Below are positions 2,262-30,351 of a stretch of DNA of 30,351 bases, piece after piece; positions within the stretch are counted from its first letter, which is position 1; the number at the start of each line of letters is the position of its first letter. The position numbers were made by a program, and so were the translations under genes. Below the pieces are notes generated by a model. That model saw only the letters and a program-made list of their open reading frames with translations. It was not told the DNA's origin and searched no databases. Origin of the DNA: a virus (Duplodnaviria; Heunggongvirae; Uroviricota; Caudoviricetes); IMG/VR virus record IMGVR_UViG_2663763000_000012. One strand, written 5' to 3'.

Positions 2262-2275
2262 TTTTCGTCACCTCC

Positions 2276-4723
2276 TTAACCGTCATGCATCATGCTGGCA
2301 CGGGCGCGCGCACGTTTATCCCGCTCGTATTTTTCGAGCGCAGCCTGTAACTGGCGGTCAAGCTGTGTCCCCGGCGCATTACCACCCGTCAGGCTGATGT
2401 GATATTCGTTTTTACTCTGGTCCACATAAGAGCGGCCAGCCGGTGCCGTGACCGGCTGATAAGCCTGATAGCCTGCATAAGAGCTGGTCGCCGGAATATA
2501 ACCACCGCTGCCATACGTGGCGGCTTGAGTTCTGGCGGCGGTCTGGTCAAGTGTGTCTGACTCTTTGTTGATAACACCGAGTTTTTCCAGTACCCAGTCA
2601 ATACCGCTGCGCAGTTTGTTGAACGCATTAAGCGGCAGCATCAGCGCGTCAGCCAGTGCCTGCCCGAACATGACCCCCGTGTCACGGCAACTGTTCAGGG
2701 TGTCCTGAGTGGCTTTGACCGGGGCAATCAGGTTTTTAAACCACTGCCACGCGGCCTGTAACTTTTCACCCAGCCAGTCAAACACCGGCTTAAGTGGCGT
2801 GAACAGTTCCCCCACCGGCGCAAATGCCGCTTTCAGCCCTTCCACCACACCGCCAAAGAATGCGCTGACAGGCTCCCAGTATTTACGGATAAGCAACGCC
2901 CCGGCGACAATGGCGGCCACCACGGCCACAACCGGCCAGCTAATCGCTCCGATGGCGGTCATAACAGCACTGCCAACCGTCGTGAAGATTGCCCCCATTG
3001 CGCCTGCTGCCGCGATGATGGCATTGATGCCGGTGATAACCGGCCAGGCTACGAGGCCAATGGCACCGATGACACCAATCAGTGCCAGTGCACCACCGAC
3101 AATGATGCCGATGGTTGACGCCAGTGATTTGTTTTTCTGGATCCAGCCGTCGAGTTTTAACACATACTTTGTGGCCGTCTGCGTGAGCTTACGCAGCGCG
3201 CCTTCCTGCTGGTCAAACAGGTCAGTCCCCACTGCCTCATAAGCGGACTGAAACTCTTTAAAGTCACCGCCTAGGTTGTCCTGCATGATATTTACCAGCT
3301 CGGCGGTCTTCCCGTCTGAGGCTTTAAACGCAGCGGTCAGTTTGTCCAGCTTTCCGGTTGAGGCGGCAGTCATCAGCACGGCGGCGGCTGAGCTGGCCTC
3401 CTCCCCGAAAATAGTTTTCATGTATTCAGCCTGCTGGGCAGTACCGAGCCGGTTTTTCTCAAAACTGGCCTGCATTTCTTTCAGAATGGTAAATATTGGC
3501 CGGGTGTTTCCCTTGCTGTCTGAGGTTTTCACTCCAAGCTCTTTGAGTGCATCCCATGCTTTTCCCGTCGGTGCCTGCAGGCGGCTTAACACGGCACGGC
3601 TTCCCGTCCCCGCCATTGAGCCTGTGATTTTTGCATCATGCAGCGCCCCGACCATTGCGGCGGTTTCTTCAATGCTGACACCGGCATTTTTTGCCACAGG
3701 TGCGGCATAGGTCAGCGCATCGCTCATGCCGTCAAAATCGGCGGCGGTTTTGTTCATCGTCATGGAGAGAACATCCCCGATATGAGCGACCTTATCGTTT
3801 GAAAGCTGAAAGGCGGATTTCATCCCCATCAGCAGGGCGGCGTTTTCTTCCATCGTGCGGCGGTTCGCCAGCGCCATATTCAGCGTGACCGGCGTTGCCG
3901 CCTGAATGGCATCAACATCCCCACCCGCTTTCGCGATGATTATCTGTGCACCGGCCGCATCATCCGCCGAGGCGGCGGTATTGTCGCCGAGCTGGCGCGC
4001 CTGTTTGCGTAGTGCGGTCATTTCGGCGGAGTCTTTTGCCACTCCGAGCACGGCCTGCAATTCTGAGTTTTTCTGCGCAAACTCATAACCGGGCATCAGC
4101 AACTTAACTCCGGCCATCGTTCCCGCAGCAGCAATCCCCACACCGGCAGCGCCTACTGAGGCCATATTTCCGGCCAGTTCCTTTCCGGCCTGATAACGCT
4201 GTTTGACTGCGTTAAGTTTTGCCTGTTGCGCACTGACACGCGCCAGCGCGTCGCGCTGCCGGTTAAGCTGTGCGGTGGTTTCACTGATACGGTTTTTCAG
4301 TCCCTGCTCATCATGTGCAAGATTGCGGGTATTAATTCCCACAACGGCCAGTTCCCGCTGCTGGCGTTTAACGGAATCCGTCAGGCGGTTATATTTCGCC
4401 TGTAAGTCCTCCGTCGCACGCTTTGCGGATTCCAGCACTTTCACCTGAGCACGGGTCGGTCGTTCGGTATTTTTAAACTGTGTGGCAAGGGCTTCAGCTT
4501 CCTGCCGTGCCTTTTCAAGTGCATGACCAGTCACGGCAAGCTGTGCACTGGTCTTGCGAAATCCCTCAATACGGGATGCCTGACCGTTCAGCTCGCGCAG
4601 TGATTTTTGTGTTTCCCGGATATCCCCCGACAGCGACTTACTCGCTGTGCGGATGGATTTAAACGGGCGGGATGCCTGGTCAACAGCCCTGAGCAATACC
4701 TGTAATTTTACATTGTTACTCAT
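2276..4723 (-). CDS. T: Tail tape measure protein T
   Basis: 815 aa, coiled-coil-rich N-terminus, Gly/Ala-rich hydrophobic central segment, directly downstream of E/E'; size matches P2 gpT. Confidence 0.9.
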   Translation of the reverse strand: MSNNVKLQVLLRAVDQASRPFKSIRTASKSLSGDIRETQKSLRELNGQASRIEGFRKTSAQLAVTGHALEKARQEAEALATQFKNTERPTRAQVKVLESAKRATEDLQAKYNRLTDSVKRQQRELAVVGINTRNLAHDEQGLKNRISETTAQLNRQRDALARVSAQQAKLNAVKQRYQAGKELAGNMASVGAAGVGIAAAGTMAGVKLLMPGYEFAQKNSELQAVLGVAKDSAEMTALRKQARQLGDNTAASADDAAGAQIIIAKAGGDVDAIQAATPVTLNMALANRRTMEENAALLMGMKSAFQLSNDKVAHIGDVLSMTMNKTAADFDGMSDALTYAAPVAKNAGVSIEETAAMVGALHDAKITGSMAGTGSRAVLSRLQAPTGKAWDALKELGVKTSDSKGNTRPIFTILKEMQASFEKNRLGTAQQAEYMKTIFGEEASSAAAVLMTAASTGKLDKLTAAFKASDGKTAELVNIMQDNLGGDFKEFQSAYEAVGTDLFDQQEGALRKLTQTATKYVLKLDGWIQKNKSLASTIGIIVGGALALIGVIGAIGLVAWPVITGINAIIAAAGAMGAIFTTVGSAVMTAIGAISWPVVAVVAAIVAGALLIRKYWEPVSAFFGGVVEGLKAAFAPVGELFTPLKPVFDWLGEKLQAAWQWFKNLIAPVKATQDTLNSCRDTGVMFGQALADALMLPLNAFNKLRSGIDWVLEKLGVINKESDTLDQTAARTQAATYGSGGYIPATSSYAGYQAYQPVTAPAGRSYVDQSKNEYHISLTGGNAPGTQLDRQLQAALEKYERDKRARARASMMHDG

Positions 4724-6890: not shown

Positions 6891-7484
6891 CTATTTGTCC
6901 CGGTTGGCTAAGGGATGACACAATTTATTCTTTGTCGCTGATGAGGGAAATTTTTTATAGAGCGTGGACAGACCAATATCAAAAATCAGTGCCACGCGTT
7001 GACGTGACTCCCCTGCAGCCAGCAAACGCCCGGCCTGCTCCCACTCACTCGTGGTGAGTTTAGGACGTCTGCCACCAATACGACCTTTGGCTCTGGCCGC
7101 TTCCAGCCCGGCCCGAGTCCGCTCGACAATGAGTTCTCGTTCCATTTCAGCCAGGGCACCCATCACATGAAAGAAAAAACGCCCCATCGGCGTGCTGGTA
7201 TCAATGGCATCCGTCAGGCTGCGAAAATTAATGCCGCGTTCGCGCAGCTCCTCAACCAGAATGACCAGATGCCGCATACTACGCCCCAGCCGGTCCAGCT
7301 TCCAGACTACCAGTGTATCCCCCTCCGATAATGTCCTGAGCAGTTTTTTCAGCCCCGGCCTGTCGGACTTCGTGCCGCTGATTTTATCCTCAAAAATCAG
7401 CTCACATCCTGCGCACTCCAGCGCGTTACGCTGCAATTCCGTATTCTGGTCATTTGTTGACACGCGGACATAGCCAATAAGCAT
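6891..7484 (-). CDS. Serine-recombinase DNA invertase (Gin/Cin/Pin/Hin family)
   Basis: N-terminus MLIGYVRVSTNDQ with the catalytic Ser motif of resolvase/invertase enzymes; C-terminal HTH region with ...STLYKKFP...; 197 aa; ATG at 7482-7484. Sits next to a tail-fibre region with oppositely oriented cassettes. Confidence 0.9.
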   Translation of the reverse strand: MLIGYVRVSTNDQNTELQRNALECAGCELIFEDKISGTKSDRPGLKKLLRTLSEGDTLVVWKLDRLGRSMRHLVILVEELRERGINFRSLTDAIDTSTPMGRFFFHVMGALAEMERELIVERTRAGLEAARAKGRIGGRRPKLTTSEWEQAGRLLAAGESRQRVALIFDIGLSTLYKKFPSSATKNKLCHPLANRDK

Positions 7485-7539
7485 GATGGATCCCCTGAAT
7501 AAAAACCGGGGATGATGCCAGTTAGCCGTAATCTCTGCA

Positions 7540-7565
7540 TTTTCTTAAACGTTGGTTTGGGGGAA
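7540..7565. other. Left crossover site (gix/cix-like 26-bp dyad) of the invertible tail-fibre segment
   Basis: TTTTCTTAAACGTTGGTTTGGGGGAA, imperfect dyad symmetry with AAAC/GTTT-containing half-sites; 20 of 26 positions match the inverted copy at 9345-9370, including a 10-nt identical core TTGGTTTGGG. Confidence 0.55.
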
Positions 7566-7901
7566 TTGGCTCTGGCTGGCGCAACAACCGGCGCTATGTT
7601 GGTGAATGGGTATGTAGCAATTCCATTAATTATTTCTGGCGTTCGGAGACCACTTATTATCCAGTGGGGAGTGGGGCAGTTTGGGGGAAGTCTGGGGGAT
7701 GATGCGGGATATTTAAACAATTTCCCTTTCGCTTTTCCGTCGGCGTGCTACGTGATGGTTGCCAGCCACGTGGGGCATACACCTTCGGGTGCCGGAATAC
7801 TATCTGCTTCCGCAATCACAAAAAGCGGCTTTCGTGGTTTTTCCAGCGTAGCGACTGCCGCAAATCCTGTATCGGGCTGTTATGTTGCTATAGGAGGGTG
7901 A
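7566..7901 (+). other. Promoterless alternative tail-fibre C-terminal cassette (Sv'-like), currently in the non-expressed orientation
   Basis: Open frame on the + strand running straight through the left crossover site (...NVGLGELALAG...), with no credible start of its own. The GLGE junction motif is shared with tail fibre H (...AYLGLGEG...) at the right crossover site. Stop at 7899-7901. Confidence 0.6.
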
Positions 7902-7902
7902 T

Positions 7903-8337
7903 GTGTTTTTTAGTCCATCTTTAAATATTTTTGTGAATCCTGCGCTTAAGGATGACTACATCAATGTAAATTCATGGCCAGATGATGCTGTTGAAGTTGA
8001 TGAGCAGGTGTATATTGAGTTTTCCGGATTACCGCCGAAAGGAAAAATCCGTATCGCTGGGGAAAATGGTTTTCCTGCATGGTCTGAAATTCCACCACCA
8101 ACGCATGAGGAACAGATTGCCGCAGCCGAATTGAAAAAACAGCAATTGATTAATCAGTCCAACGAATATATGAATACCAAGCAATGGCCTGGTAAAGCGG
8201 CTATTGGTCGTCTGAAAGGTGAGGAACTGGCGCAATATAATTTGTGGCTGGATTATCTGGACGCACTGGAACTGGTTGATACCTCCAGTGCTCCAGATAT
8301 TGAATGGCCTACGCCTCCGGCAGTTCAGGCCAGATGA
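7903..8337 (+). CDS. Alternative tail fibre assembly chaperone (U'-like)
   Basis: 144 aa, GTG start at 7903 preceded by AGGAGG (7892-7897); C-terminus ...DTSSAPDIEWPTPP... parallels the C-terminus of the minus-strand chaperone (8309-8902, ...DTSTAPDVIWPELP...). The two genes converge and overlap at their 3' ends. Confidence 0.7.
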   Translation: MFFSPSLNIFVNPALKDDYINVNSWPDDAVEVDEQVYIEFSGLPPKGKIRIAGENGFPAWSEIPPPTHEEQIAAAELKKQQLINQSNEYMNTKQWPGKAAIGRLKGEELAQYNLWLDYLDALELVDTSSAPDIEWPTPPAVQAR

Positions 8338-8902
8338 CATCCGGCGCGGTGCTCGTATCTGTTGCCGTCACCGCGTCAATGTAATCAAGCACGGCGTTAA
8401 GCCGGGTGGTTTCTGCCTGCGTCAGCTTCCGCCCGGCCTGTAATTTCAGCTGAATCAGACTGATGGAAGCCATTGCAGCATCAATCAGTGACTGGCGCTG
8501 TGCTTCTGCCGCTTCTACTGCGGCACCGTGTTGTGCCTCAGTATCTGTCACCCATTTCTCACCATCCCATTTATCATATGGCGTTAACGGTGAAAGCGTG
8601 ACATAACCGTTTTTGATGGCACCGATATAATCCACTGTAACAGCAGCACCATTTTCGATTGAGTAAACAGTCTCATTGCGATGGTCTTCTTCATGGCTCC
8701 ATCCCTTACCTGTAAATACTGCCACTCTTCCCGGAATGTTTTCGCCAGGGTCAATACCAGTGGAACAGGCGGGCATACTTACGCCAGTATTAATATATTC
8801 ATCAGACCAGCCCGTATACTCAGATGTTTCAGCATCATAATAAAAACAACGCATATCGCCCGGCACTGTAGCCAGCCCATTTTCATCAAAAACAGGTTTC
8901 AT
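8309..8902 (-). CDS. G: Tail fibre assembly chaperone (G/U-like), expressed orientation
   Basis: 197 aa, ATG at 8900-8902 overlapping the H stop; SD-like GGTGAGGG upstream; conserved C-terminal DTS.AP motif shared with the alternative copy. Confidence 0.85.
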   Translation of the reverse strand: MKPVFDENGLATVPGDMRCFYYDAETSEYTGWSDEYINTGVSMPACSTGIDPGENIPGRVAVFTGKGWSHEEDHRNETVYSIENGAAVTVDYIGAIKNGYVTLSPLTPYDKWDGEKWVTDTEAQHGAAVEAAEAQRQSLIDAAMASISLIQLKLQAGRKLTQAETTRLNAVLDYIDAVTATDTSTAPDVIWPELPEA

Positions 8903-10185
8903 TATTTAGCCCTCACCAGAAAGTTAAATGCAATATTTCGCGGTCTGACAGCAACAAAATTCACACCATCACCCACAGAGTTACTGGTGAAATTAAATCG
9001 TGAAAATCCTGGCTGATTTCCGGCGATGCCATCATGAAAGTTAATTGCGTGTCCCGCACCTCCGCCTATATTCCCGGCAAACTGAGAAAAGTTTGTAGCT
9101 TCCTGCCAGCTTAATAATTCGCGACCACCATCGGCACCTCGCCCGTCATCCCAGATACGAATGAAATCACCGCGGGCTTCAGGTAATACCAGTGAAGGAA
9201 ACACTTTCGCCAGCACAGGGTAATCAGAGGCAGAAAATTTCGCCCCGTTGAACTTCAAAAACACCATACTGGACCAGCTGTCGATTACAGTATTTGGCAT
9301 TGCAGCGGACGGCCAGAAGAACGGAACGCCAATAGCTGGAGCACCTTCTCCCAAACCAAGGTATGCGAGAAGACCAGCTACATCCTTTCCACTCAAATGA
9401 GTCAGCGTCTCATCCAGTGGCTGCTTACCTGACAGCGCATTGTTAATGGTGGTACTGAATTTCGGGTCATTGTTGATAGCTGCGGCAATTTCTTTCAGTG
9501 TGTCCAGCGTGTCAGGGGCACCGTTAATCAGAGCGGTAATAGCGGCCTGTACAAACGCAGTGGTCGCAATCCGCGTGGTGTTATTTCCTGCGGCAGGCGT
9601 CGGCGCTTTTGGTTCTCCGGTAAATGTCGGATTATGTTTCTGTGCATACTGGGTATGAGGATCCTGTGCGGCAATATGGTTTCTCATCTGGTCATCCACA
9701 TACAGCCTTAACTCCAGGACTTCATCATCCACGTATTTACGGGTCGCCAGTACCACCGACGGGTCGATTTTCAGCGTGATGGCTTCGGTATTCGTGACAA
9801 CCAGAATCATGCGGATAGTCTGGGTACGACCACTGCCTTCCTGCAACTGCGGTTTGTACGTTTCCGGGCAGTTCGCCACCGCAATGAGTACGCCTTCATC
9901 ATCATAAAGCCCAATCTCACGGATCCAGAATCCGCCCTCGTTCTCAGGGATGATTTGCTCCGCAATAATCTGGCTCTGGTTGTTCGGGTCAACACTCAGA
10001 AGATTCAGCGGCGCGATGCGTTTCTGGTTAATAAGTTTTGTCTGTGCCGGGTCTGGTGTCGGCAAGACACCATTTGCATCACCAACGGCCATTTGCGTCA
10101 GATTCAGCTTACTGCCGAGCATCGTCGCGTTAGCCAGCCGTGCCGCGCCCTGATTAGTCAGAATGGCGTAGTATTTCACTGTCAT
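8902..10185 (-). CDS. H: Tail fibre protein H (constant N-terminus fused to the currently selected variable C-terminus)
   Basis: 427 aa; N-terminus MTVKYYAILTNQGAARLANA...MAVGDANG resembles the conserved P2 H / Mu S N-terminal region; start overlaps the I stop (ATGA). The crossover site lies inside the coding sequence at about codon 265. Confidence 0.85.
   Translation of the reverse strand: MTVKYYAILTNQGAARLANATMLGSKLNLTQMAVGDANGVLPTPDPAQTKLINQKRIAPLNLLSVDPNNQSQIIAEQIIPENEGGFWIREIGLYDDEGVLIAVANCPETYKPQLQEGSGRTQTIRMILVVTNTEAITLKIDPSVVLATRKYVDDEVLELRLYVDDQMRNHIAAQDPHTQYAQKHNPTFTGEPKAPTPAAGNNTTRIATTAFVQAAITALINGAPDTLDTLKEIAAAINNDPKFSTTINNALSGKQPLDETLTHLSGKDVAGLLAYLGLGEGAPAIGVPFFWPSAAMPNTVIDSWSSMVFLKFNGAKFSASDYPVLAKVFPSLVLPEARGDFIRIWDDGRGADGGRELLSWQEATNFSQFAGNIGGGAGHAINFHDGIAGNQPGFSRFNFTSNSVGDGVNFVAVRPRNIAFNFLVRAK
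9345..9370. other. Right crossover site (gix/cix-like), inside tail fibre gene H
   Basis: Minus-strand sequence TTCTCGCATACCTTGGTTTGGGAGAA; inverted relative to the left site; half-sites TTCTCGCATACC and TTCTCCCAAACC show dyad symmetry. Confidence 0.55.
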
Positions 10186-18945: not shown

Positions 18946-19118
18946 TGTCAGGAGTCCTGAATAGTGATTAGAGGAGTCACATGTCGGCATCAGTTTCCCG
19001 ACGATGCGCATCCTCCGCCATCAGTCCCGGATGGCTTATCACTGACACAACAGCACCTTAGCGAATCGCGGGGCGCGACTCAGTAGCCTTGCCGTGTATT
19101 CATCACGGCGAGGTATTC
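18946..19118. promoter_or_regulatory. Divergent late promoter region between O (minus) and P (plus)
   Basis: 173-bp intergenic region between divergently transcribed capsid and terminase operons, equivalent to the Ogr-dependent PO/PP region of P2. No perfect TGT-N12-ACA element was found by eye, so exact promoter positions are not called. Confidence 0.45.
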
Positions 19119-20891
19119 ATGACCATCACCACAGACACCACTCTTTTACACGACCCGCGTCGTCAGGCGGCGCTGCTGTACTGGCAGGGGTTTTCCGTGC
19201 CGCAGATTGCCGCCATGTTGCAGATGAAACGCCCGACGGTGCAGAGCTGGAAACAGCGCGACGGCTGGGACAGCGTTGCTCCCATCAGCCGTGTCGAAAT
19301 GAGTCTGGAAGCGCGGCTGACCCAGCTCATCATCAAACCGCAGAAAACCGGCGGTGACTTCAAGGAAATTGACCTGCTCGGACGCCAGATTGAACGACTG
19401 GCACGGGTAAACCGCTACAACCAGACCGGCAACGAGGCAGACCTTAATCCGAACATCGCTAACCGCAACAAAGGCGGGCGGCGCAAACCGAAAAAGAATT
19501 TTTTCAGCGACGAGGCTATCGAAAAGCTGGATCAGATTTTCTTTGAGCAGTCTTTCGACTATCAGTTGCACTGGTATCGCGCCGGGCTTGAGCACCGCAT
19601 CCGCGATATCCTGAAATCCCGCCAGATTGGCGCGACGTTTTATTTTTCCCGCGAGGCGCTGCTGCGCGCCCTGAAAACCGGTCATAACCAGATTTTTCTG
19701 TCGGCCAGTAAAACGCAGGCGTATGTGTTCCGCGAATACATCATCGCCTTTGCCCGGCTGGTTGACGTTGACCTGACCGGTGACCCGATTGTCCTGGGCA
19801 ATAACGGCGCAAAACTGATTTTTCTCGGCACCAACTCCAACACCGCGCAGAGTCATAACGGCGACCTGTACGTCGATGAGATTTTCTGGATCCCGAATTT
19901 TCAGGTACTGCGTAAGGTGGCATCAGGTATGGCCTCACAGAGTCACCTGCGCTCGACCTATTTCTCCACCCCGTCCACGCTGGCGCACGACGCCTACCCG
20001 TTCTGGTCGGGTGAACTGTTTAACCGGGGACGCGCCAGCGCCGCCGAACGCGTGGAAATCGACGTCAGTCATAACGCCCTTGCCGGTGGGCTTCTCTGTG
20101 CGGACGGCCAGTGGCGACAGATTGTCACCATTGAGGACGCCCTGAAAGGCGGCTGCACGCTGTTCGACATTGAGCAGCTCAAACGCGAAAACAGCGCCGA
20201 CGATTTTAAAAACCTGTTCATGTGTGAATTTGTTGACGACAAGGCATCGGTGTTCCCGTTCGAGGAGCTGCAACGCTGCATGGTCGACACGCTGGAAGAA
20301 TGGGAAGACTATGCGCCGTTTGCCGCCAATCCGTTCGGCTCCCGCCCGGTATGGATTGGTTACGACCCGTCACACCGTGGCGACAGCGCCGGATGCGTGG
20401 TACTGGCACCGCCGGTGGTGGCCGGTGGCAAATTCAGAATACTTGAGCGTCACCAGTGGAAAGGCATGGACTTTGCCACTCAGGCTGAATCCATCCGCAA
20501 ACTCACCGAGAAATACAACGTCGAATACATCGGTATTGATGCCACCGGCCTCGGTGTCGGCGTGTTCCAGCTCGTGCGCTCGTTCTATCCCGCCGCACGC
20601 GACATCCGCTACACGCCGGAAATGAAAACCGCAATGGTGCTCAAGGCAAAAGACGTTATCCGCCGTGGCTGTCTGGAATATGACGTCAGCGCCACCGACA
20701 TCACCAGCTCGTTTATGGCTATCCGCAAGACCATGACCAGCAGCGGACGCAGCGCCACCTATGAGGCCAGCCGCAGCGAGGAAGCCAGCCACGCCGACCT
20801 CGCCTGGGCGACCATGCACGCCCTGTTAAATGAGCCACTCACCGCCGGTATCAGCACCCCGCTGACATCCACCATTCTGGAGTTTTACTGA
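19119..20891 (+). CDS. P: Terminase ATPase (large) subunit P
   Basis: ATG at 19119-19121 preceded by GAGGTA; MTITTDTTLLHDPRRQAALLYWQGF...; about 590 aa; stop overlaps the Q start (TGATG). Confidence 0.9.
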   Translation: MTITTDTTLLHDPRRQAALLYWQGFSVPQIAAMLQMKRPTVQSWKQRDGWDSVAPISRVEMSLEARLTQLIIKPQKTGGDFKEIDLLGRQIERLARVNRYNQTGNEADLNPNIANRNKGGRRKPKKNFFSDEAIEKLDQIFFEQSFDYQLHWYRAGLEHRIRDILKSRQIGATFYFSREALLRALKTGHNQIFLSASKTQAYVFREYIIAFARLVDVDLTGDPIVLGNNGAKLIFLGTNSNTAQSHNGDLYVDEIFWIPNFQVLRKVASGMASQSHLRSTYFSTPSTLAHDAYPFWSGELFNRGRASAAERVEIDVSHNALAGGLLCADGQWRQIVTIEDALKGGCTLFDIEQLKRENSADDFKNLFMCEFVDDKASVFPFEELQRCMVDTLEEWEDYAPFAANPFGSRPVWIGYDPSHRGDSAGCVVLAPPVVAGGKFRILERHQWKGMDFATQAESIRKLTEKYNVEYIGIDATGLGVGVFQLVRSFYPAARDIRYTPEMKTAMVLKAKDVIRRGCLEYDVSATDITSSFMAIRKTMTSSGRSATYEASRSEEASHADLAWATMHALLNEPLTAGISTPLTSTILEFY

Positions 20892-21925
20892 TGAGCAAGA
20901 AAAAAGGGAAAACACCGCAACCTGCGGCAAAAAAAATGACCGCCAGCGCCCCGAAAATGGAAGCATTCACCTTTGGTGAGCCGGTGCCGGTACTCGACCG
21001 CCGTGACATTCTGGATTACGTCGAGTGCATCAGTAACGGCAGATGGTATGAGCCACCGGTCAGCTTTACTGGTCTGGCAAAAAGCCTGCGTGCTGCCGTG
21101 CATCACAGCTCACCAATTTACGTCAAACGCAATATTCTGGCCTCGACATTTATCCCGCATCCGTGGCTTTCACAGCAGAATTTCAGCCGCTTTGTGCTGG
21201 ACTTTCTGGTGTTCGGTAATGCGTTTCTGGAAAAGCGTTACAGCACCACCGGTAAGGTCATCAGACTGGAAACCTCACCGGCAAAATATACCCGCCGTGG
21301 CGTGGAGGAGGATGTTTACTGGTGGGTGCCGTCCTTCAACGAGCCGACAGCCTTCGCTCCCGGCTCCGTGTTTCACCTGCTGGAGCCGGATATTAATCAG
21401 GAGCTGTACGGCCTGCCGGAATATCTCAGCGCCCTTAACTCTGCCTGGCTGAATGAGTCGGCCACGCTGTTCCGCCGCAAGTATTACGAAAACGGCGCTC
21501 ATGCCGGATACATCATGTACGTCACCGATGCCGTGCAGGATCGCAACGATATCGAAATGCTTCGCGAAAACATGGTTAAGTCGAAAGGCCGCAATAACTT
21601 TAAAAATCTGTTTCTCTATGCCCCACAGGGGAAAGCCGACGGCATTAAAATTATCCCGCTCAGTGAAGTGGCAACGAAGGACGATTTTTTTAATATCAAA
21701 AAAGCCAGCGCCGCTGACCTGCTGGACGCGCATCGCATCCCCTTTCAGTTGATGGGCGGCAAGCCGGAGAACGTCGGGTCACTGGGAGATATTGAGAAAG
21801 TGGCAAAGGTCTTTGTCCGCAATGAGCTTATCCCGTTACAGGACAGGATTCGGGAAATAAACGGCTGGCTCGGTCAGGAGGTCATCCGCTTTAAAAACTA
21901 CTCACTGGACACTGACAACGACTGA
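20891..21925 (+). CDS. Q: Portal (capsid portal vertex) protein Q
   Basis: 344 aa ORF immediately after P and followed by a terminator and cos; size matches P2 gpQ. Confidence 0.9.
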   Translation: MSKKKGKTPQPAAKKMTASAPKMEAFTFGEPVPVLDRRDILDYVECISNGRWYEPPVSFTGLAKSLRAAVHHSSPIYVKRNILASTFIPHPWLSQQNFSRFVLDFLVFGNAFLEKRYSTTGKVIRLETSPAKYTRRGVEEDVYWWVPSFNEPTAFAPGSVFHLLEPDINQELYGLPEYLSALNSAWLNESATLFRRKYYENGAHAGYIMYVTDAVQDRNDIEMLRENMVKSKGRNNFKNLFLYAPQGKADGIKIIPLSEVATKDDFFNIKKASAADLLDAHRIPFQLMGGKPENVGSLGDIEKVAKVFVRNELIPLQDRIREINGWLGQEVIRFKNYSLDTDND

Positions 21926-21952: not shown

Positions 21953-22094
21953 ACAACCCGCCATCACGCCCTCACACGCTCACCACCGCACAAAACAGCC
22001 CGCAGACACACCAACGCCCCGGCTAACAATCTAAACGCCATCACGACGCGCTCAGACGCTGAAAAAATAAAATCAGCACCACCGCCAGCGCGCA

Positions 22095-22113
22095 GTGCTT
22101 TCCCCGCCTCGCC
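22095..22113. other. cos: cos cohesive-end site (19 nt)
   Basis: GTGCTTTCCCCGCCTCGCC is the exact reverse complement of the P2 cohesive-end sequence as I recall it (GGCGAGGCGGGGAAAGCAC); it lies just beyond Q, where cos sits in P2. Confidence 0.8.
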
Positions 22114-22268
22114 CGCCCGCCCGCTTCATGGGTCGGTTTGAATGCAGTTGAATTACAACTACCAAACCAAGCAATCCCTACTATTACGCAGAAAATGCAT
22201 ACTGAAATACCTCGTGCAAATTGATGCAGCTAAGTATGCATAGGTTTTATGCCTCAACGTATACGTTA

Positions 22269-24101
22269 TCAAACAGAGCCCTGTTCAAAAACAGTATCAA
22301 AATATGGTAGGAGAGGATAAGCACACAGAAAGAAAATCAGGATGCATGCATATGTCGTTGTTTCATCGTAACAAGCATTAGTATATAAATTACCATGTGC
22401 TAATTTATGTCTTAAGGTTGCCCCACTCTTTCTGTTAAAAAGAACATCGATAGTCAAAACAAGATTTTTAGAAAAGATACTTTCCAAATCATCTCTGCAT
22501 TTATCTAGAAGCTGAGAAATACTTGTTGACTCCTCTAATCCCTTATCCAAATATCTAGTAGCATCCTTTCCGCTAAGCTCATAATAATAACGAACCATAC
22601 CTTCCATTTGTGGTATTAAAAGATAAGCTGCACTGATGTAATCTCCCTGCCATAATTTGTAAAAGCCCAAATTAAAAATCTCCCTAAACTCCGGCTTGAC
22701 AATTGGACTAGTTGTAACCAATTTAACGAATGTTGACAACGTCAAGCCATGTTCTTGAGAAAGTACATAGCGAGCAGGTTCAAAGACACCGTTTACAAAA
22801 ATCTTATGAGTAATCTCGAAATTTCTTAGATATTGATCAATAACAACATCATCACTCATATATTTTTTATTATCCAACGGCGGGATTGTATATATCTTAC
22901 GCCCACTCTCATCATTAATTTCTGTTCCAACAAAACTAGAGAATAAACTTTTTTCTGATAATCTTAAAACTTGTTCCCTCATGCTTTCAATATTTTCAAT
23001 CGGTGTTTCACTCATTAAAACTTTGAATATATCGGGCAAAGAACGCCCCGTCAGTTTTTTTTCACTTTCAGCAACCAAGTCACTAATATCAATAGAATGG
23101 CTTAAAGTGACATATTCACTCCTTACTTCTTCTCTCAAATTAGCAAGTTGTTCCTTTAAATCTTCTATCTGTTGGCTATCACCACCGTACTGTCTTAATT
23201 CAGAGATAGCTGTTCTTAACCAAGAGATCTTACCCATATTATCAGGTCGTTCTGTTGCAACTTTAATAGTAATATTTGCAGATGCCAGTTTACATCTCTT
23301 GGCACGTTCATACTCACCATTTTTTTCATAAATAACTGCACTTGTCATATAAAGTGATTTTACAGCATCATAATATTTTTTATCTTTATGCTGCTCAGCC
23401 ATCTTCTCAGCATTTTCCGCATACTGCAGATTATACCCATCAAAATCACGCACCATAAACCAAGTCAAATTATTGAAACCTTCAAAGATTAATCTTTCAT
23501 TTTGAATACTATAAAGAGAATGAATGGCATTTTTAATCGCCATGTTTCCTTCTGATTTTCTAGGGTAGACCATTTTATTAATGTGCAAAGCCCTAGCAAT
23601 ATAATCACGAGCAAAAATAAAGCAATTTAAATCACTTTCATCCATGCTTTCGTTTTTTATTATTAGCTTTTCAATTGCTATATTTAGCATTTCAGCATAG
23701 GAATCAATTGCTTTAATTGCCACGTCTTTATTTTTCCGATTATTACACCAAACAACATCATATATTCTTGATAACAAAAATGGATTGGTTATTTTTTGAG
23801 AAACATATAAAAGACAGTCATTCACCTGCTCATCAAAATCTTCAGGCAATATTGATCTTTTATTACCCCAAATCATTTGGGGTTCAAATGATGGAGTGTT
23901 GTTAACAACTTGCAAATTGAAACTATATAGCATACCAAAAAGAGATGCTAATTTTTTCTCTTTGGGGTTTTCTGATGACTCAGCAATCCCATCCAGATAT
24001 TTTTTTATTTTATGTGCATGAAATGTAACTGGTATATGCATAAAAACACTATAATCTAGTGTTTCAAGCTCTTCCCTTGTAAGAACAAAGATATCATTCA
24101 T
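22269..24101 (-). CDS. Large AT-rich cargo protein of unknown function; candidate anti-phage defence/abortive-infection effector with a C-terminal HEPN-like R-x4-H motif
   Basis: Continuous ORF (645 codons from a TTG at 24204-24206; 610 aa from the ATG at 24099-24101, which has an AAGGTG Shine-Dalgarno 7 nt upstream). Strongly AT-rich compared with the flanking prophage. Occupies the tin/old accessory locus between cos and gene A. Motif LRHKLAHG at 22395-22412; no Walker A motif seen. Confidence 0.75.
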   Translation of the reverse strand: MNDIFVLTREELETLDYSVFMHIPVTFHAHKIKKYLDGIAESSENPKEKKLASLFGMLYSFNLQVVNNTPSFEPQMIWGNKRSILPEDFDEQVNDCLLYVSQKITNPFLLSRIYDVVWCNNRKNKDVAIKAIDSYAEMLNIAIEKLIIKNESMDESDLNCFIFARDYIARALHINKMVYPRKSEGNMAIKNAIHSLYSIQNERLIFEGFNNLTWFMVRDFDGYNLQYAENAEKMAEQHKDKKYYDAVKSLYMTSAVIYEKNGEYERAKRCKLASANITIKVATERPDNMGKISWLRTAISELRQYGGDSQQIEDLKEQLANLREEVRSEYVTLSHSIDISDLVAESEKKLTGRSLPDIFKVLMSETPIENIESMREQVLRLSEKSLFSSFVGTEINDESGRKIYTIPPLDNKKYMSDDVVIDQYLRNFEITHKIFVNGVFEPARYVLSQEHGLTLSTFVKLVTTSPIVKPEFREIFNLGFYKLWQGDYISAAYLLIPQMEGMVRYYYELSGKDATRYLDKGLEESTSISQLLDKCRDDLESIFSKNLVLTIDVLFNRKSGATLRHKLAHGNLYTNACYDETTTYACILIFFLCAYPLLPYFDTVFEQGSV

Positions 24102-24117
24102 CGTTTTCACCTTTTTC

Positions 24118-24148
24118 AGTATAAATTTGCACACATTATTATTAGCAA
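24118..24148 (-). promoter_or_regulatory. Putative sigma70-like promoter for the cargo gene
   Basis: On the minus strand, TTGCTA then a 19-nt spacer then TATACT, just upstream of the ATG at 24101. The spacer is longer than optimal, so this is weak. Confidence 0.3.
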
Positions 24149-24220
24149 CATAACTATCAATAGTTAACACATGCAGATAAACAGCAATTTTACTATTATG
24201 CAACAAATTAAATCAGATGT

Positions 24221-26503
24221 TTATTGCTCTGAATAACAATAAAACCAACTCCACTCATCAGCGACCGGATACGTAAATTTTTTCCCGTTGTAATTTACGA
24301 TCGCGCCACGCGCCAGCGCCTCAAGCTCCCATCGCTGCGGCCTGATACCGTTCTGAGCAAGGTCAACGCGGATACGGGTAATTTGCATTCTTTCCGACCG
24401 GGTCAGTCTGGCCGATGGCGCTATTTCATGCGGTTTTAACGGTCTTCCGTTTCTTTGCTGACGGTTTGGTCTTCTCAGGCCGTGTTTTAATGCGCCCCTG
24501 AGCGCCCTCACGACCTCCGGGTCATTCCATTCGATAACACCGTCATCAACCAGATTAAGCACTGCTGCGGCGTGCTCAGAAGGCGTGGGAGCCGGTAACG
24601 AAGTATCACCACCGGTGAGCTTTCCACAGTTATTGACAGGACTCCGAGGCGCGGCGATGCCGCTTTTTAAAGTCAAAGGCTCAACGACCGGAACTTTCGG
24701 AACAATGCGCCACTCCGTCGTTCTGGTGATATGAATATGGCGCGCGCCGAGATGCGGCGCGTAAATGCCGACCACTCTCTCGACTTCTTCCTCGTACTCG
24801 TTAACTTCATCCGACGGGCTACGGGCGACCCTGACAGTCTGACAATCGCGCTGGACATTTGCCCCACCCTGCGCGCTGATATACAACGCAAAATCACCAC
24901 TGTCTGCGGCGGCGCGTGCAGCCTCGACGCGCTCGTCAAACTCATCAGCAATGCTGACGCCGCGAGGCAATTTGCGTAGTTCACGGTAAGCCCCCATTGT
25001 CGGCAGGCCAACCGTTTTAAATTGCGGGATGCGCCACGTTGACGCCCATGCGGTAACAGCCGCTGCAGTGTCTTTCAGCGGCCTGCCGGTGTCGTTATCG
25101 AGCTGACCATCCAGTGCATAACCGTCGATGTTTTTTGAAATGTATTTCGCGATATATCCCGCAGCACCGCCCCGGTTAAGGTGTTTTGCCTGAAAACGGT
25201 TTCGCGCGGCTCCTCTTTCGTCGCCATCCTCTTTGAGCGCATAGCGGCGCATGATTTCGATAATCTGGTTACGCTGGCGTGGATTACAAAAAAGCATCAT
25301 ATGCCAGTGCGGCGTTCCGTCGTGGTGTGGCTCGACGACTCGCAAACCGTAGACCTGTAAATCATTATCCTTGAATGCCGTGCGCATCAGGCTCCAGATA
25401 CGGCAGAGATAACGCTGCGCATCCTTTGGATTAAATGCCTCATCGTTCCAGCCGTGATTAAGCTGGACGGTTTTATTTTCGCCTTTTCCGACCTGACGTG
25501 TCGGGTGATACTTTGACGGCGCGGTAAGCGTGATAAACATCCCCACATCACCCTCTGCGGCGGCGTAACGCTCAATACCGGCAATGGTGTTCATCAGCTC
25601 CATCCGGCGAATTTCTGGATTAGAAATACTGCCCATCACCTTACTGATAAGGTCGATGCGCTCGCCGGTTTCCCTGTTTTCAAGGTCACACGATTTAAGA
25701 AATTCCAGATTTGCCTGGCGGCGCGCACGCACATCACGAATGGCATGTTTACTGGCATAAGGAGAACGGTCTTTATTGACCTCCCCGACAGCAATCAGTA
25801 ACGCCTCATGCCAGCGCATACGCTGGCCTTTAAGCTGACTAATCCACCACTCATCGTTAAACAGACGGGCAATGGCAGAATATGCCTGCCTCGTGGTCAT
25901 CTGTCCTTTACGGTATTTTTTCCAGTAGAGCGGGGAAATATTGAAAGCACGTGCAGCGCCAGCAACATGACCATACAGGTGAGCCTGCGCCTCATCCGTA
26001 AACAGCGATTCTTTTTCACCATGCGCATCAACCCATGCATCGCAGAGTTCCTCATACATCATGAAAAGCTGCGATGAGATACGGGCGGCAAACTTTTTCA
26101 GCTCCTTGTCATTCATTCCAGGCAGGCGCGCATAGTGGCCACGCTCTGCCAAAAACAGCAACGACGCGTCGGTGTTCATTTCATGGCGCTGATTCACGCG
26201 CTCAATGCGCGGCCATAAACGACGCTGAAAAGTGGATGTGAGGAAATAAAACCCGTGCACCGGGCTTTTATTGCGCCGGATGTAGTCATAGCGTGAAGTA
26301 AACAGCGAACGCAAAAAGTAAGGCAGGCGGTTAATCGTGGATAAAACACCTTGCACCTGACGCATCTCGTCACGTGTAAGGGGTCTTTCGCGCCCGACGG
26401 CCTCGCGTGGCGCGTTCCATGCATAAGCACCGGTAAACGTCTTACCGGTGCCTGCGGCAAATGCTGACGGAGGGACAAAACGCCCGGAGGCTTTAACGGC
26501 CAT
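24221..26503 (-). CDS. A: Replication initiation protein A (rolling-circle replication endonuclease)
   Basis: ATG at 26501-26503 gives MAVKASGRFVPPSAFAAGTGK...; about 760 aa; the ORF-track start at 26545 is a TTG extension. The largest early gene, in the position of P2 gene A. Confidence 0.9.
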   Translation of the reverse strand: MAVKASGRFVPPSAFAAGTGKTFTGAYAWNAPREAVGRERPLTRDEMRQVQGVLSTINRLPYFLRSLFTSRYDYIRRNKSPVHGFYFLTSTFQRRLWPRIERVNQRHEMNTDASLLFLAERGHYARLPGMNDKELKKFAARISSQLFMMYEELCDAWVDAHGEKESLFTDEAQAHLYGHVAGAARAFNISPLYWKKYRKGQMTTRQAYSAIARLFNDEWWISQLKGQRMRWHEALLIAVGEVNKDRSPYASKHAIRDVRARRQANLEFLKSCDLENRETGERIDLISKVMGSISNPEIRRMELMNTIAGIERYAAAEGDVGMFITLTAPSKYHPTRQVGKGENKTVQLNHGWNDEAFNPKDAQRYLCRIWSLMRTAFKDNDLQVYGLRVVEPHHDGTPHWHMMLFCNPRQRNQIIEIMRRYALKEDGDERGAARNRFQAKHLNRGGAAGYIAKYISKNIDGYALDGQLDNDTGRPLKDTAAAVTAWASTWRIPQFKTVGLPTMGAYRELRKLPRGVSIADEFDERVEAARAAADSGDFALYISAQGGANVQRDCQTVRVARSPSDEVNEYEEEVERVVGIYAPHLGARHIHITRTTEWRIVPKVPVVEPLTLKSGIAAPRSPVNNCGKLTGGDTSLPAPTPSEHAAAVLNLVDDGVIEWNDPEVVRALRGALKHGLRRPNRQQRNGRPLKPHEIAPSARLTRSERMQITRIRVDLAQNGIRPQRWELEALARGAIVNYNGKKFTYPVADEWSWFYCYSEQ

Positions 26504-26768
26504 GTGAGCCAAAAGCCTCTGAACAACGCTTGCTGAGTTGCTCAACCTGCGCGTTTAAATCAGCAAAAGATTTTGCGCTTCCGGTCAGAATATCGTGATG
26601 CATCAGGCCGGAAACGAGCTGGCTTAATTTCGGGTAATAACCAACCACCGCCAGCCATTCCTGACCGGCGTTTTTACCGCTTTCAGCTCTCTTTTTCTCG
26701 TGGAGAATAAACTGAAAGCTGTCACTGGTAACGACATAACGTTCGCCAATTTCAATACGAATACTCAT
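26493..26768 (-). CDS. Small early protein, P2 orf83-like hypothetical
   Basis: 91 aa, ATG start, overlaps the A start by 11 nt; position immediately upstream of A. Confidence 0.65.
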   Translation of the reverse strand: MSIRIEIGERYVVTSDSFQFILHEKKRAESGKNAGQEWLAVVGYYPKLSQLVSGLMHHDILTGSAKSFADLNAQVEQLSKRCSEAFGSHGR

Positions 26769-26989
26769 GCCGTTCTCCGGTAATGTTTGTTTTTTGCTTC
26801 AAAGACTGACTGACAGGAAACACAACGCGTGGCTGACGGGTAAGCCGCACGACGGGCAGCAGGTATTGGCGCGTCACACTCTTCGCAAACCAGCGCAGAA
26901 GCACCGCAATGTTTTACCCTTGCCGCGTTAATCTGGCGCTCCAGTAATTCAGCCTGTTGTTCCTGAATAAAATCTACGTTGTCCGGCAT
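26765..26989 (-). CDS. TraR/DksA-family C4 zinc-finger protein
   Basis: 74 aa with C-x2-C-x17-C-x2-C (CEECDAPIPAARRAAYPSATRCVSC), typical of phage TraR/DksA-like proteins (P2 orf82 position). Confidence 0.8.
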   Translation of the reverse strand: MPDNVDFIQEQQAELLERQINAARVKHCGASALVCEECDAPIPAARRAAYPSATRCVSCQSVFEAKNKHYRRTA

Positions 26990-27279
26990 TACCAGCTCCT
27001 TTTGTCGTTCAGCTTCTTAAATTCATCAGCGCAATAGCTGGCGATTTCTGTCGTTAATTTTGTCAGTTCATCCACGGATGAAATTTGCTTATGAAATACA
27101 GCGCGTTTAACAAGTAAATTGACCACATCAGACAGGAGATTTAATTTATCCGCATAAATGGCTATAGTTGATTCCACCATATCCCCAGTGTTTTTATCGC
27201 GTTTAATGTCAGCTAGCGACAAATCACCATTTTTCATGACTGAAATCTTCAGCCAGTTATTAAACAATATATTTTTCAT
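26989..27279 (-). CDS. Hypothetical small early protein (lower GC)
   Basis: 96 aa ORF, ATG start, tightly coupled to neighbours; visibly AT-richer than neighbouring early genes. Confidence 0.6.
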   Translation of the reverse strand: MKNILFNNWLKISVMKNGDLSLADIKRDKNTGDMVESTIAIYADKLNLLSDVVNLLVKRAVFHKQISSVDELTKLTTEIASYCADEFKKLNDKRSW

Positions 27280-27521
27280 TCGCTATATGCCCTCTCCGCA
27301 GAATCAATCATTTCCCGGCCATTATCGGTAATACAGAAACCTTCTCTTGATTTGGTCACAAGCCCCCATTTCCCCATTGCTATAAATGCTTTTTCCACAC
27401 GACTAGGACAGGAGCGGAAGACATCGCTTGAAGGATGTAGTGGAGTCTTGTCATCTAATTTTTTAAGTAATGAAAGTTGATAATCTGTTAAGCGTTTCCT
27501 GAACCATTTTGTATTTGTCAT
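27276..27521 (-). CDS. Hypothetical small early protein
   Basis: ATG at 27519-27521 with GGAG immediately upstream (MTNTKWFRKRL...); the ORF-track start at 27527 is TTG. Confidence 0.6.
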   Translation of the reverse strand: MTNTKWFRKRLTDYQLSLLKKLDDKTPLHPSSDVFRSCPSRVEKAFIAMGKWGLVTKSREGFCITDNGREMIDSAERAYSE

Positions 27522-27535
27522 CTCCAACTTCCCTG

Positions 27536-27748
27536 TTATTTATTGAGTCCTAGATTATGGAATTTGGCAGACTCCTGACTGAGCAACTCGACTATCTCCA
27601 CGCGGGATAACTCCGCCTTTGTGATGTGGCGAATCATGGCATCAAGATGAGACGAAAAGCGCGTTGCTGCATCGGCCTGTGCTTCGGTTCTGGCCTGTTG
27701 CAGCATTAATGCGTATTTACCGCACTGATTTTCAGAAACTGTATGCAT
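27536..27748 (-). CDS. Hypothetical small early protein (orf80-like position)
   Basis: 70 aa ORF with ATG start downstream of B in the early operon. Confidence 0.6.
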
Positions 27749-29355: not shown

Positions 29356-30351
29356 ATGTCTATTAAAAAGCTCGATGATGGTCGTTATGAAGTGGACGTC
29401 AGACCGCAGGGTGCAGATGGAAAACGTATCAGGCGGAAATTTAAAACTAAAGGTGAAGCTCAAGCATTCGAACGTCATGTACTGGTTAACTACCACAACA
29501 AAGAGTGGCTGGAGAAGCCAGCCGACCGCCGAACTCTTACAGAGTTGTTAGGCAGATGGTGGATATATCACGGAAAATCACATGAGCGTGGAGATATTGA
29601 ACGGGGGCGTTTGACGACAATAATCGCCAAATTTGCAGAAATGGTAGTGTCCAGAGCTGACCAGCTAACAAAGAAAACGATAACTGATTATCGCGTTGTA
29701 ATGATGAACGATGGTCTAAAACCAGCCAGCGTAAATCGGCATCTGGCAATAATGAGCGGGATGTTCACCAAGTTAATTGACGCCGGTGAATACCATTCTC
29801 ACAACCCGTTCCGTGAGGTTAAGCGATTACGTGAAGCTGTTACAGAAATGGCTTTTTTGTCCAGTGAAGAGATTACACGGCTGTTATCCATGCTCGATGG
29901 TGATGAATTAAATGCGACTCTGGTCTGCCTTTCTACTGGTGGACGCTGGAGTGAAGTGTCTAATTTAAAAGCTGAACACATCATTAACCAGATGGTTACG
30001 TTTATGAAAACTAAAAACGGAAAGCGCAGGACAATTCCCGTTTCGCAGGACCTGATTAAACGGATCAAGACCAAAAATTCAGGCAGGCTTTTTAATGCCA
30101 GTTACTACAAAGTGCGCAACGCTCTCAGGGAAGTAAAACCCGATTTACCTGACGGACAGGCAGTGCATGTTTTGAGGCATACATTTGCCACACATTTTAT
30201 AATGAATGGAGGTAACATAATCACATTGCAGCGCATCCTGGGTCATTCTAACATTCAGCAAACTATGACCTACGCACACTTTGCACCGGATTTCTTACAA
30301 GATGCAGTGACTCTTAACCCGGTGTCAGGAATGTCCATAATGCGTCCATAA
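29356..30351 (+). CDS. int: Tyrosine integrase (P2 Int family)
   Basis: 331 aa, ATG preceded by GGAGG; catalytic-type motifs TGGRWSE, HVLRHTFATH and TMTYAHF (R...HxxR...Y); the stop TAA is the last codon of the window. Confidence 0.92.
   Translation: MSIKKLDDGRYEVDVRPQGADGKRIRRKFKTKGEAQAFERHVLVNYHNKEWLEKPADRRTLTELLGRWWIYHGKSHERGDIERGRLTTIIAKFAEMVVSRADQLTKKTITDYRVVMMNDGLKPASVNRHLAIMSGMFTKLIDAGEYHSHNPFREVKRLREAVTEMAFLSSEEITRLLSMLDGDELNATLVCLSTGGRWSEVSNLKAEHIINQMVTFMKTKNGKRRTIPVSQDLIKRIKTKNSGRLFNASYYKVRNALREVKPDLPDGQAVHVLRHTFATHFIMNGGNIITLQRILGHSNIQQTMTYAHFAPDFLQDAVTLNPVSGMSIMRP

What the first reader, a model, noticed from the sequence alone, without database searches (positions are those of the whole stretch)
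22269..24206. AT-rich single-gene cargo in the tin/old hotspot: candidate undescribed anti-phage defence protein
This 610-645 aa ORF is the only gene between cos/Q and replication gene A, the locus that holds tin and old in P2 and is reported to carry diverse anti-phage systems in P2-like prophages. Its composition is strikingly different from the rest of the prophage (AT-rich by eye, Asn/Lys/Ile/Tyr-rich protein), which argues for independent horizontal acquisition. It has no Walker A (GxxxxGK[ST]) motif, so it is not an OLD-type ATPase. The C-terminal region carries R599-x4-H604 (LRHKLAHG, 22395-22412) in a hydrophobic, helix-prone context, compatible with a HEPN-type RNase as in many abortive-infection effectors. 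I do not recognise the protein as any named family.
Basis: partly seen in the sequence, partly recalled or inferred. Interest (0 to 1): 0.85.

Follow-up and report, generated by a model that had tools for sequence, protein, structure and literature searches.

The report
Catalogued HEPN candidate defence gene in P2
The AT-rich single gene between cos and replication gene A of this P2-like prophage is real and very probably encodes a latent HEPN-type RNase, but it belongs to a family already catalogued as a candidate defence gene, and a ~99% identical copy gave no validated phage resistance in a published eight-phage test.

Summary
One gene fills the P2 tin/old slot at 22269-24101 (-). The true product is 610 aa from the ATG at 24101, not 645 aa. 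Its GC is 33% against 54% for the rest of the window. It has no Walker A motif, and R-x4-H lies at 22395-22412.

The HEPN guess is well supported:
- Across 135 relatives of 20-37% identity, the only invariant columns are E500, R564 and H569. They form the two HEPN signatures, E-x3-R and R-[HN]-x3-H.

"Undescribed" is wrong. The protein is RefSeq WP_057728358.1. It matches Pfam DUF7380 and DUF4209 (the C6orf70/ERMARD-type HEPN family of Anantharaman 2013), PHROG 5183, and PADLOC candidate PDC-S39 over its full length (E 2e-83). Rousset et al. 2022 list it as the 13th-ranked P2-hotspot system (193 occurrences). They cloned a ~99% identical copy ("Putative HEPN", pFR103) with its native promoter. 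It appears only among the tested-but-not-validated systems for their eight-phage panel.

Best reading: a single-protein sensor-effector with a latent RNase. Its function is still unproven. Low novelty, modest interest.

The parts
22269..24101 (-). Coding sequence of the cargo protein (610 aa plus stop). It is RefSeq WP_057728358.1 and belongs to the DUF7380/DUF4209 (PADLOC PDC-S39) family.
24102..24220 (-). AT-rich upstream intergenic region. It holds the Shine-Dalgarno AAGGTG (24108-24113) and two sigma-70-like hexamer pairs (24223-24195 and 24167-24138). The promoter-like sites are not more frequent than chance in this AT-rich DNA.
23550..24092 (-). N-terminal DUF7380 domain (residues 4-184). 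Near-invariant residues are R82, D88, R112, D115, W118, Y135 and R170. Proposed sensor or regulatory domain (inference).
22875..23549 (-). Central all-helical, TPR/SNAP-like region (residues 185-409). This is the least conserved part, with only weak repeat-protein similarities.
22272..22874 (-). C-terminal HEPN-like domain (residues 410-610). It contains the sub-threshold DUF4209 match at residues 524-590.
22590..22604 (-). E500-x3-R504, the second HEPN signature (E-x3-[KR]). E is present in 135/135 relatives and R in 134/135.
22395..22412 (-). R564-H565-x3-H569, the HEPN R-x4-H catalytic motif. R and H are each 135/135. The residue after R is H, N or D in 134/135.
22095..22113 (-). P2 cos 19-mer, which bounds the hotspot about 155 bp downstream of the stop codon.

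Best explanation
This is a single-gene cargo of the P2 gpA-cos-gpQ hotspot. It encodes a three-part protein: an N-terminal DUF7380 domain, a helical TPR-like middle, and a C-terminal HEPN domain of the DUF4209 (C6orf70/ERMARD) type.

Shown here:
- Family membership.
- An intact and invariant HEPN catalytic signature (E500-x3-R504 and R564-H-x3-H569).
- A HEPN-like fold for the C-terminal domain.
- Solo-gene status.
- Long-term residence in P2-family prophages.
- Occurrence of relatives inside type I R-M operons.

Inferred:
- The HEPN domain is a metal-independent RNase held latent by the N-terminal two-thirds of the same polypeptide.
- A phage-derived cue relieves that inhibition, probably through HEPN dimerisation.
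- RNA cleavage then arrests the cell and blocks a competing phage (abortive-infection logic).
- The prophage expresses the gene from its own promoter in the lysogen.

The trigger and the RNA target are unknown.
For: Family:
- PADLOC PDC-S39, E 2e-83, full length.
- DUF7380, E 4e-39, and DUF4209, E 7e-4, over residues 524-590.
- All 21 distant relatives tested match both Pfam domains.
- DUF4209 is classified as a catalytically active HEPN family, found in R-M-related operons and fused to TPR (PMC3710099).

Active site:
- In 135 relatives of 20-37% identity, the only invariant columns are E500, R564 and H569.
- R504 is 134/135, and position 565 is H, N or D in 134/135.
- This matches the published HEPN definition.

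Fold:
- The C-terminal domain model has pLDDT 95 and pTM 0.91.
- The motif sits at the end of a short helix and the start of the loop before the last long helix, as described for HEPN.
- The effector domain is more conserved than the rest: median identity 31% against 19-20%.

Context:
- The same slot is used in E. coli genomes and in Klebsiella, Enterobacter and Kosakonia prophages.
- A second allele of only 32% identity occupies the same slot in P2-EC46.
- A relative is translationally coupled between hsdS and hsdR in L052.
- No neighbour gene is conserved across 58 loci.
- PDC systems were defined by embedding in BREX, DISARM or type I R-M systems.
Against: - Rousset et al. 2022 tested a ~99% identical gene from E. 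coli S88. [quoted passage not shown] It is listed only among 'additional tested systems', not among the validated ones.
- PDC-S39 is explicitly an untested candidate.
- Foldseek against the PDB gave no significant hit for either model. The best E-value was 0.47, to Csm6.
- The window protein itself scores 20.0 bits on DUF4209, below the 22.3-bit cut-off.
- No RNase activity, toxicity, trigger or dimer has been shown for any member of the family.
Confidence: 0.55

Rival explanations
1. It is a HEPN RNase that serves the prophage rather than host immunity. Possible roles are an addiction or stabilisation toxin, a regulator of phage or host RNA during induction, or a factor aimed at the P4 satellite that exploits the adjacent cos site.
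For: No defence was validated in the published eight-phage test. The whole clade of at least 48% identity sampled here sits in P2/186-like prophages next to cos. The gene has kept its low GC over long divergence, which suggests stable association with the phage.
Against: Distant relatives are overwhelmingly chromosomal and not phage-borne. Their neighbours vary and include R-M, IetS-like and PIN genes. Other tested cargo at this slot, including old/tin and three further validated systems, acts in phage exclusion. There is no antitoxin-like partner.
Confidence: 0.2
2. It is a PrrC-like second-line guard that works only together with a restriction-modification or other partner system. The solo phage-borne copy would then be inert or need a host-encoded partner absent from MG1655.
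For: A relative lies between hsdS and hsdR with overlapping reading frames (L052). From general knowledge, prrC occupies this position in the prr locus. Another relative lies directly after hsdR (L021). PDC candidates were found by embedding in R-M, BREX or DISARM systems. Anantharaman 2013 notes R-M-related operons for this family. This reading would also explain the negative test in a heterologous host.
Against: Only about 4 of 58 sampled loci have type I R-M genes adjacent. In P2-family prophages the gene is always solo. It lacks the ABC-ATPase domain of PrrC and RloC, with no Walker A motif.
Confidence: 0.12
3. The HEPN-like domain is non-catalytic, acting in binding or scaffolding as in MtlR or the nucleotidyltransferase-associated HEPNs. 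The protein would then have a non-nuclease role.
Against: Non-catalytic HEPNs typically lose the R-x4-6-H motif. Here R, H and the upstream E are the only invariant residues in the whole 610-aa family.
Confidence: 0.06

Closest known systems
PADLOC phage defence candidate PDC-S39 (Payne et al. 2024, guilt-by-embedding set of 145 untested candidates)
   Same: Full-length match to both PDC-S39 models, E about 2e-83 over residues 7-598. It is a single-gene system. Relatives are embedded in type I R-M operons.
   Different: Nothing structural. This copy is phage-borne in the P2 hotspot rather than embedded in an R-M system. The family itself is unvalidated.
P2-hotspot system #13 'DUF4209' and plasmid pFR103 'Putative HEPN' of Rousset et al. 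2022 (PMC9122126)
   Same: Same protein, with an identical N-terminal sequence in Table S5B. The pFR103 copy shows 3 substitutions in the visible ~400 residues. Same locus between gpA and gpQ.
   Different: A different E. coli strain (S88). That copy was tested and not listed as validated.
C6orf70/ERMARD-type HEPN family (Pfam DUF4209; Anantharaman et al. 2013)
   Same: Conserved R-x4-H with a polar residue after R. Upstream E-x3-[KR]. Fusion to TPR-like helices. Occurrence in R-M-related operons.
   Different: The window protein is a divergent AT-rich branch scoring just under the Pfam cut-off (20.0 against 22.3 bits). According to that paper, eukaryotic members carry a transmembrane segment. 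None was looked for or noticed here.
HEC-08 (DUF3644 HEPN plus zinc-ribbon single-gene defence, Payne et al. 2024); also ApeA and PD-T7-4 (named from general knowledge, not compared here)
   Same: Single-polypeptide HEPN defence proteins. For HEC-08, mutating the R-x4-6-H histidine abolished defence. This is the working model proposed here.
   Different: A different HEPN family and different accessory domains. The window protein has no PADLOC hit to any of them. Those systems have a demonstrated phenotype and this one does not.
PrrC/RloC anticodon nucleases
   Same: HEPN-type RNase domains. Some relatives occupy a slot inside type I R-M operons, as prrC does (the prrC locus layout is from general knowledge).
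   Different: There is no N-terminal ABC-ATPase domain and no Walker A motif. The P2 copy has no R-M partner.
P2 Old and Tin (the cargo of reference P2 at this locus)
   Same: Same genomic slot and the same presumed role of excluding other phages.
   Different: No sequence relationship. There is no Walker A or OLD ATPase-Toprim architecture.

Membership tests
HEPN superfamily (definition of Anantharaman et al. 2013, PMC3710099) | Conserved R-x4-6-H motif | tested here: met
   R564 and H569 are each 135/135 in alignment A2.
HEPN superfamily (definition of Anantharaman et al. 2013, PMC3710099) | Polar residue (N, D or H) immediately after the conserved R | tested here: met
   Position 565 is H in 106, N in 26 and D in 2 of 135 sequences. 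The criterion is quoted.
HEPN superfamily (definition of Anantharaman et al. 2013, PMC3710099) | Upstream conserved acidic residue, typically in an E-x3-[KR] motif in helix 2 | tested here: met
   E500 is 135/135 and R504 is 134/135. Both lie within predicted helix 488-509.
HEPN superfamily (definition of Anantharaman et al. 2013, PMC3710099) | [quoted passage not shown] | tested here: met
HEPN superfamily (definition of Anantharaman et al. 2013, PMC3710099) | Metal-independent RNase activity | not testable with these tools
   This needs biochemistry.
Pfam DUF4209 (PF13910) | Score at or above the gathering cut-off (22.3 bits) | tested here: not met
   The window protein scores 20.0 bits, E 7e-4, over residues 524-590. 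Only 10 of 20 close homologues match at E <= 0.01.
Pfam DUF4209 (PF13910) | Homology to bona fide DUF4209 proteins through the family profile | tested here: met
   All 21 distant relatives found with the family profile match DUF4209. The best E-value is 9e-10, and P0041 scores 27.8 bits, above the cut-off. The 99% identical phage protein is annotated as DUF4209 domain-containing in GenBank ON470601.
Pfam DUF7380 (PF24098) | Score at or above the gathering cut-off (27 bits) | tested here: met
   134.6 bits, E 4e-39, over residues 4-184.
PADLOC PDC-S39 | Full-length match to the PDC-S39 HMMs as a single-gene system | tested here: met
   E 1.8e-83 and 2.1e-83, covering residues 7-598. No conserved partner gene was found.
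Validated anti-phage defence system | Reproducible reduction of plaquing that depends on the gene | not testable with these tools
   The only published test found is pFR103 against eight coliphages. It is listed as tested but not validated.
OLD-family ATPase-nuclease (P2 Old) | Walker A P-loop of the ABC ATPase domain | tested here: not met
   No G-x4-G-K-[ST] or [AG]-x4-G-K-[ST] motif. No OLD or ATPase hit in Pfam or PADLOC.
PrrC/RloC anticodon nucleases | N-terminal ABC-ATPase domain fused to the HEPN RNase | tested here: not met
   No P-loop. The N-terminus is DUF7380.

The most novel reading that the evidence does not exclude
PDC-S39 proteins may be a genuine, widespread family of self-contained sensor-RNases. 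The family spans more than 3,000 clusters at 50% identity, from Proteobacteria to Cyanobacteria and Bacteroidota. The trigger would simply be absent from the eight-phage panel. It could be, for example, a factor of phages that compete with P2 in nature, an anti-restriction protein (PrrC-like logic), or the P4 satellite. Working out the mechanism would also give the first biochemical handle on the homologous HEPN domain of human ERMARD/C6orf70.
Probability: 0.3. Interest if true: 0.6.

Novelty: already known. Interest (0 to 1): 0.3.

Why it matters
The gene is a clean, compact test case for an unvalidated candidate family.
- It is a single gene of 1.8 kb and solo.
- It is present in about 1% of complete E. 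coli genomes (55 of 5,426) and in 193 P2-hotspot occurrences in Rousset's survey.
- It has three obvious catalytic residues to mutate.

If a trigger were found, PDC-S39 would move from candidate to system. That would also support the 2013 prediction that DUF4209/ERMARD-type HEPN domains are active RNases.

As it stands, nothing here goes beyond what the databases and Rousset et al. already record.

Tried and rejected
- Foldseek of the full-length model against the PDB gave only weak TPR-like solenoid hits with TM below 0.2.
- Foldseek of the C-terminal domain gave nothing significant. The best hit was Csm6 at E 0.47.
- The AFDB50 library was unavailable.
- A profile search of PDB sequences gave no relative. 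The best hit was a TPR protein at E 0.035.
- NCBIfam gave no hit.
- A second word-indexed homologue search with the 135-sequence profile returned only the same 20 close proteins.
- The search for related loci failed with the broad alignment. It worked with a 21-sequence subset.
- A search for a conserved partner gene or antitoxin in 58 loci found none.
- The TTG start at 24206 (645 aa) was rejected in favour of the ATG at 24101.
- The two other R-x4-6-H matches (R426 and R444) were rejected because they are not conserved across the family.
- Literature searches for DUF7380, ERMARD plus HEPN, and the protein accessions found nothing relevant.
- The DefensePredictor supplements are not held, so I could not check whether one of its four validated HEPN systems is this family.
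- The supplements of the PDC paper do not mention PDC-S39 or DUF4209 in the held text.

Full report
**Observation**

The ORF is real. The ORF listing gives 22269..24206 (-), 645 aa from a TTG. The functional start is the ATG at 24101, which gives 610 aa:
- Every one of 20 homologues begins there.
- An AAGGTG Shine-Dalgarno lies 6 nt upstream.
- RefSeq and Rousset et al. use the same start.

The flanks are those of a P2-like prophage:
- Terminase at 19089-20891 (+).
- Portal gene Q at 20891-21925 (+).
- The exact P2 cos 19-mer at 22095-22113.
- Replication gene A at 24221-26545 (-).

No other ORF of at least 40 aa lies in the slot, apart from short ORFs nested inside the gene. GC is 0.332 for the gene against 0.536 for the rest of the window. 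There is no Walker A motif, and LRHKLAHG sits at 22395-22412. An isolated R-x4-H is expected by chance in 41% of shuffles of this protein. The motif therefore means nothing without conservation data.

**What the protein is**

It is not an orphan:
- Pfam gives DUF7380 (residues 4-184, E 4e-39). It also gives DUF4209 just under threshold (residues 524-590, 20.0 bits against a 22.3-bit cut-off).
- PADLOC gives a full-length match to the phage defence candidate PDC-S39 (E 2e-83).
- PHROGs gives phrog_5183, function unknown. NCBIfam gives nothing.
- The exact sequence is RefSeq WP_057728358.1, 'DUF7380 domain-containing protein'.
- A 99% identical gene in phage vB_EcoM-569R9 is annotated 'DUF4209 domain-containing protein'.

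An exhaustive profile search finds 3,359 clusters at 50% identity with E <= 1e-3. Almost all of the 150 best hits listed are about 600-640 aa and match over their full length. All 21 distant relatives I scanned carry both Pfam domains. The architecture DUF7380 - helical middle - DUF4209 therefore defines the family, and the window protein is a divergent AT-rich branch of it.

**HEPN evidence**

Anantharaman et al. 2013 (PMC3710099) assigned DUF4209, typified by human C6orf70 (named ERMARD here from general knowledge), to the HEPN superfamily. They noted fusion to TPR and occurrence in R-M-related operons. They define HEPN active sites by four features:
- An R-x4-6-H motif.
- A polar residue (N, D or H) after the R.
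- An upstream acidic residue, usually within E-x3-[KR] in helix 2.

In my alignment of 135 relatives (20-37% identity to the window protein), the only invariant columns in the whole protein are E500, R564 and H569. R504 is 134/135, and position 565 is H, N or D in 134/135.

The full-length AlphaFold model is mediocre (pLDDT 75). The C-terminal domain (residues 410-610), modelled with 144 sequences, is confident (pLDDT 95, pTM 0.91). In that model:
- E500 and R504 lie in a long helix.
- R564 lies in a short helix, and H569 lies at the start of the following loop.
- A long terminal helix follows.

**The rest of the protein**

The N-terminal DUF7380 domain has its own near-invariant polar residues: R82, D88, R112, D115, W118, Y135 and R170. 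The middle region gives only weak TPR/SNAP-like signals. The HEPN domain is more conserved than the other two parts, with median identity 31% against 19-20%. That pattern fits a conserved effector joined to a faster-evolving sensing part. This is an inference.

**Distribution and context**

- The gene occurs in 55 of 5,426 complete E. coli genomes. It is always a single chromosomal copy at 99% identity or more.
- In the two genomes inspected it lies between the portal gene and the replication endonuclease gene.
- Relatives of 53-66% identity in Klebsiella, Enterobacter, Kosakonia and a metagenome occupy the same slot of P2/186-like prophages.
- ORF612 of P2-EC46 (AM157366) is only 32% identical, yet it is also PDC-S39.
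- All these phage-borne alleles have GC of 0.33-0.36 against 0.50-0.54 in their flanks.

The low GC is therefore an old, maintained property of a phage-resident lineage, not a sign of very recent import.

Distant members come from Alpha- and Gammaproteobacteria, Cyanobacteria, Bacteroidota and other groups. Across 58 loci no neighbour gene is conserved. Neighbours are a mix of housekeeping genes and defence or mobile genes:
- Type I HsdR and HsdS.
- C5 methylases.
- IetS-like subtilases.
- PIN_12 proteins.
- Integrases.

In L052 the gene overlaps hsdS upstream and hsdR downstream. This fits how PDC candidates were found, by embedding in BREX, DISARM or type I R-M systems.

**Prior work on this exact gene**

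Rousset et al. 2022 (PMC9122126) surveyed the gpA-gpQ hotspot in E. coli. Their Table S5B lists system 13, 'DUF4209', with 193 occurrences and this protein's N-terminal sequence. It also lists system 55, 'DUF4209', with 76 occurrences, whose sequence begins like ORF612 of P2-EC46.

Their Table S2B lists pFR103, 'Putative HEPN', P2 locus, from E. coli S88. Its protein differs from the window's at 3 positions in the roughly 400 residues shown. Systems were cloned with native promoters on a pSC101 vector in MG1655. They were challenged with lambda, T4, P1, 186cIts, CLB_P2, LF82_P8, AL505_P2 and T7. The paper states that validated systems are in Table S2A and 'additional tested systems' in S2B. 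That pFR103 gave no detectable defence is my reading of that sentence. The PADLOC authors describe all 145 PDC systems as untested.

**Mechanism and rivals**

The best-supported model is a single-polypeptide sensor-effector. A latent HEPN RNase is activated by a phage cue and cleaves RNA, which arrests the infected cell. HEC-08 is a validated single-gene precedent, where mutating the motif histidine abolishes defence.

Confidence that this is a HEPN domain with an intact catalytic signature is about 0.85. Confidence that the biological role is anti-phage defence is only about 0.55, because of the negative test.

Rivals:
- A phage-serving RNase, acting in addiction, regulation or against the satellite (0.2).
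- A PrrC-like guard that needs an R-M partner (0.12).
- A non-catalytic HEPN (0.06).

**Verdict**

The claim of an undescribed family was not. The gene is a catalogued, previously predicted, once-tested and still unvalidated candidate. Novelty is low. Interest is modest and rests on the open question of what triggers a family this widespread.

Noticed in passing
window 6891-9371: A serine invertase (Resolvase + HTH_7, 6891-7484, -) sits beside an oppositely oriented tail-fibre C-terminus (7512-7901, +, Gp53-like_C) and a tail-fibre assembly gene (7903-8337, +, Caudo_TAP). Imperfect inverted repeats lie at 7540-7577 and 9334-9371. This looks like a Gin/Cin-type invertible host-range segment.
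   Followed up: partly
window 22095-22113 (and about 21964-22161): The exact P2 cos 19-mer lies about 155 bp downstream of the cargo's stop codon. GenBank ON470601 annotates a 65-aa hypothetical CDS across the equivalent region. No ORF of at least 40 aa exists there in this window, so that annotation is probably spurious.
   Followed up: partly
L002 (AM157366, P2-EC46 ORF612), compared with window 22269-24101: A second allele of the same family, only 32% identical, occupies the same P2 hotspot. It corresponds to Rousset's system 55, with 76 occurrences. Two deeply diverged alleles at one slot suggest diversifying turnover.
   Followed up: yes
L052 205-6333: The family gene (1482-3329) overlaps hsdS upstream by 4 nt and hsdR downstream by 35 nt. 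From general knowledge, this is the slot that prrC occupies in the prr locus.
   Followed up: partly
L010 2636-5155; L039 and L041 3045-5597: A large S8 subtilase (IetS-like in PADLOC) lies directly upstream on the same strand as the family gene in three loci, all scanned in A5. L039 and L041 appear to share the same flanking genes. This may be a recurrent pairing or simply a shared island.
   Followed up: no
window 26989-27748: A second AT-rich stretch (GC about 0.39) lies in the early operon. It holds ordinary P2 small genes (DUF5405, an 83-aa ORF with no hit, and DUF2732), not foreign cargo.
   Followed up: yes
window 29356-30351: An integrase-like ORF (assigned from its position and sequence, not scanned) runs to the last base of the window. 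The window therefore holds almost a whole P2-like prophage, cut inside int.
   Followed up: no
protein cluster of P0001: Many members of the 90% identity cluster are partial proteins from Salmonella enterica contigs of about 14-19 kb. The same gene is therefore also common in Salmonella, where assemblies tend to break within it. The genomic context of those Salmonella copies was not examined.
   Followed up: no
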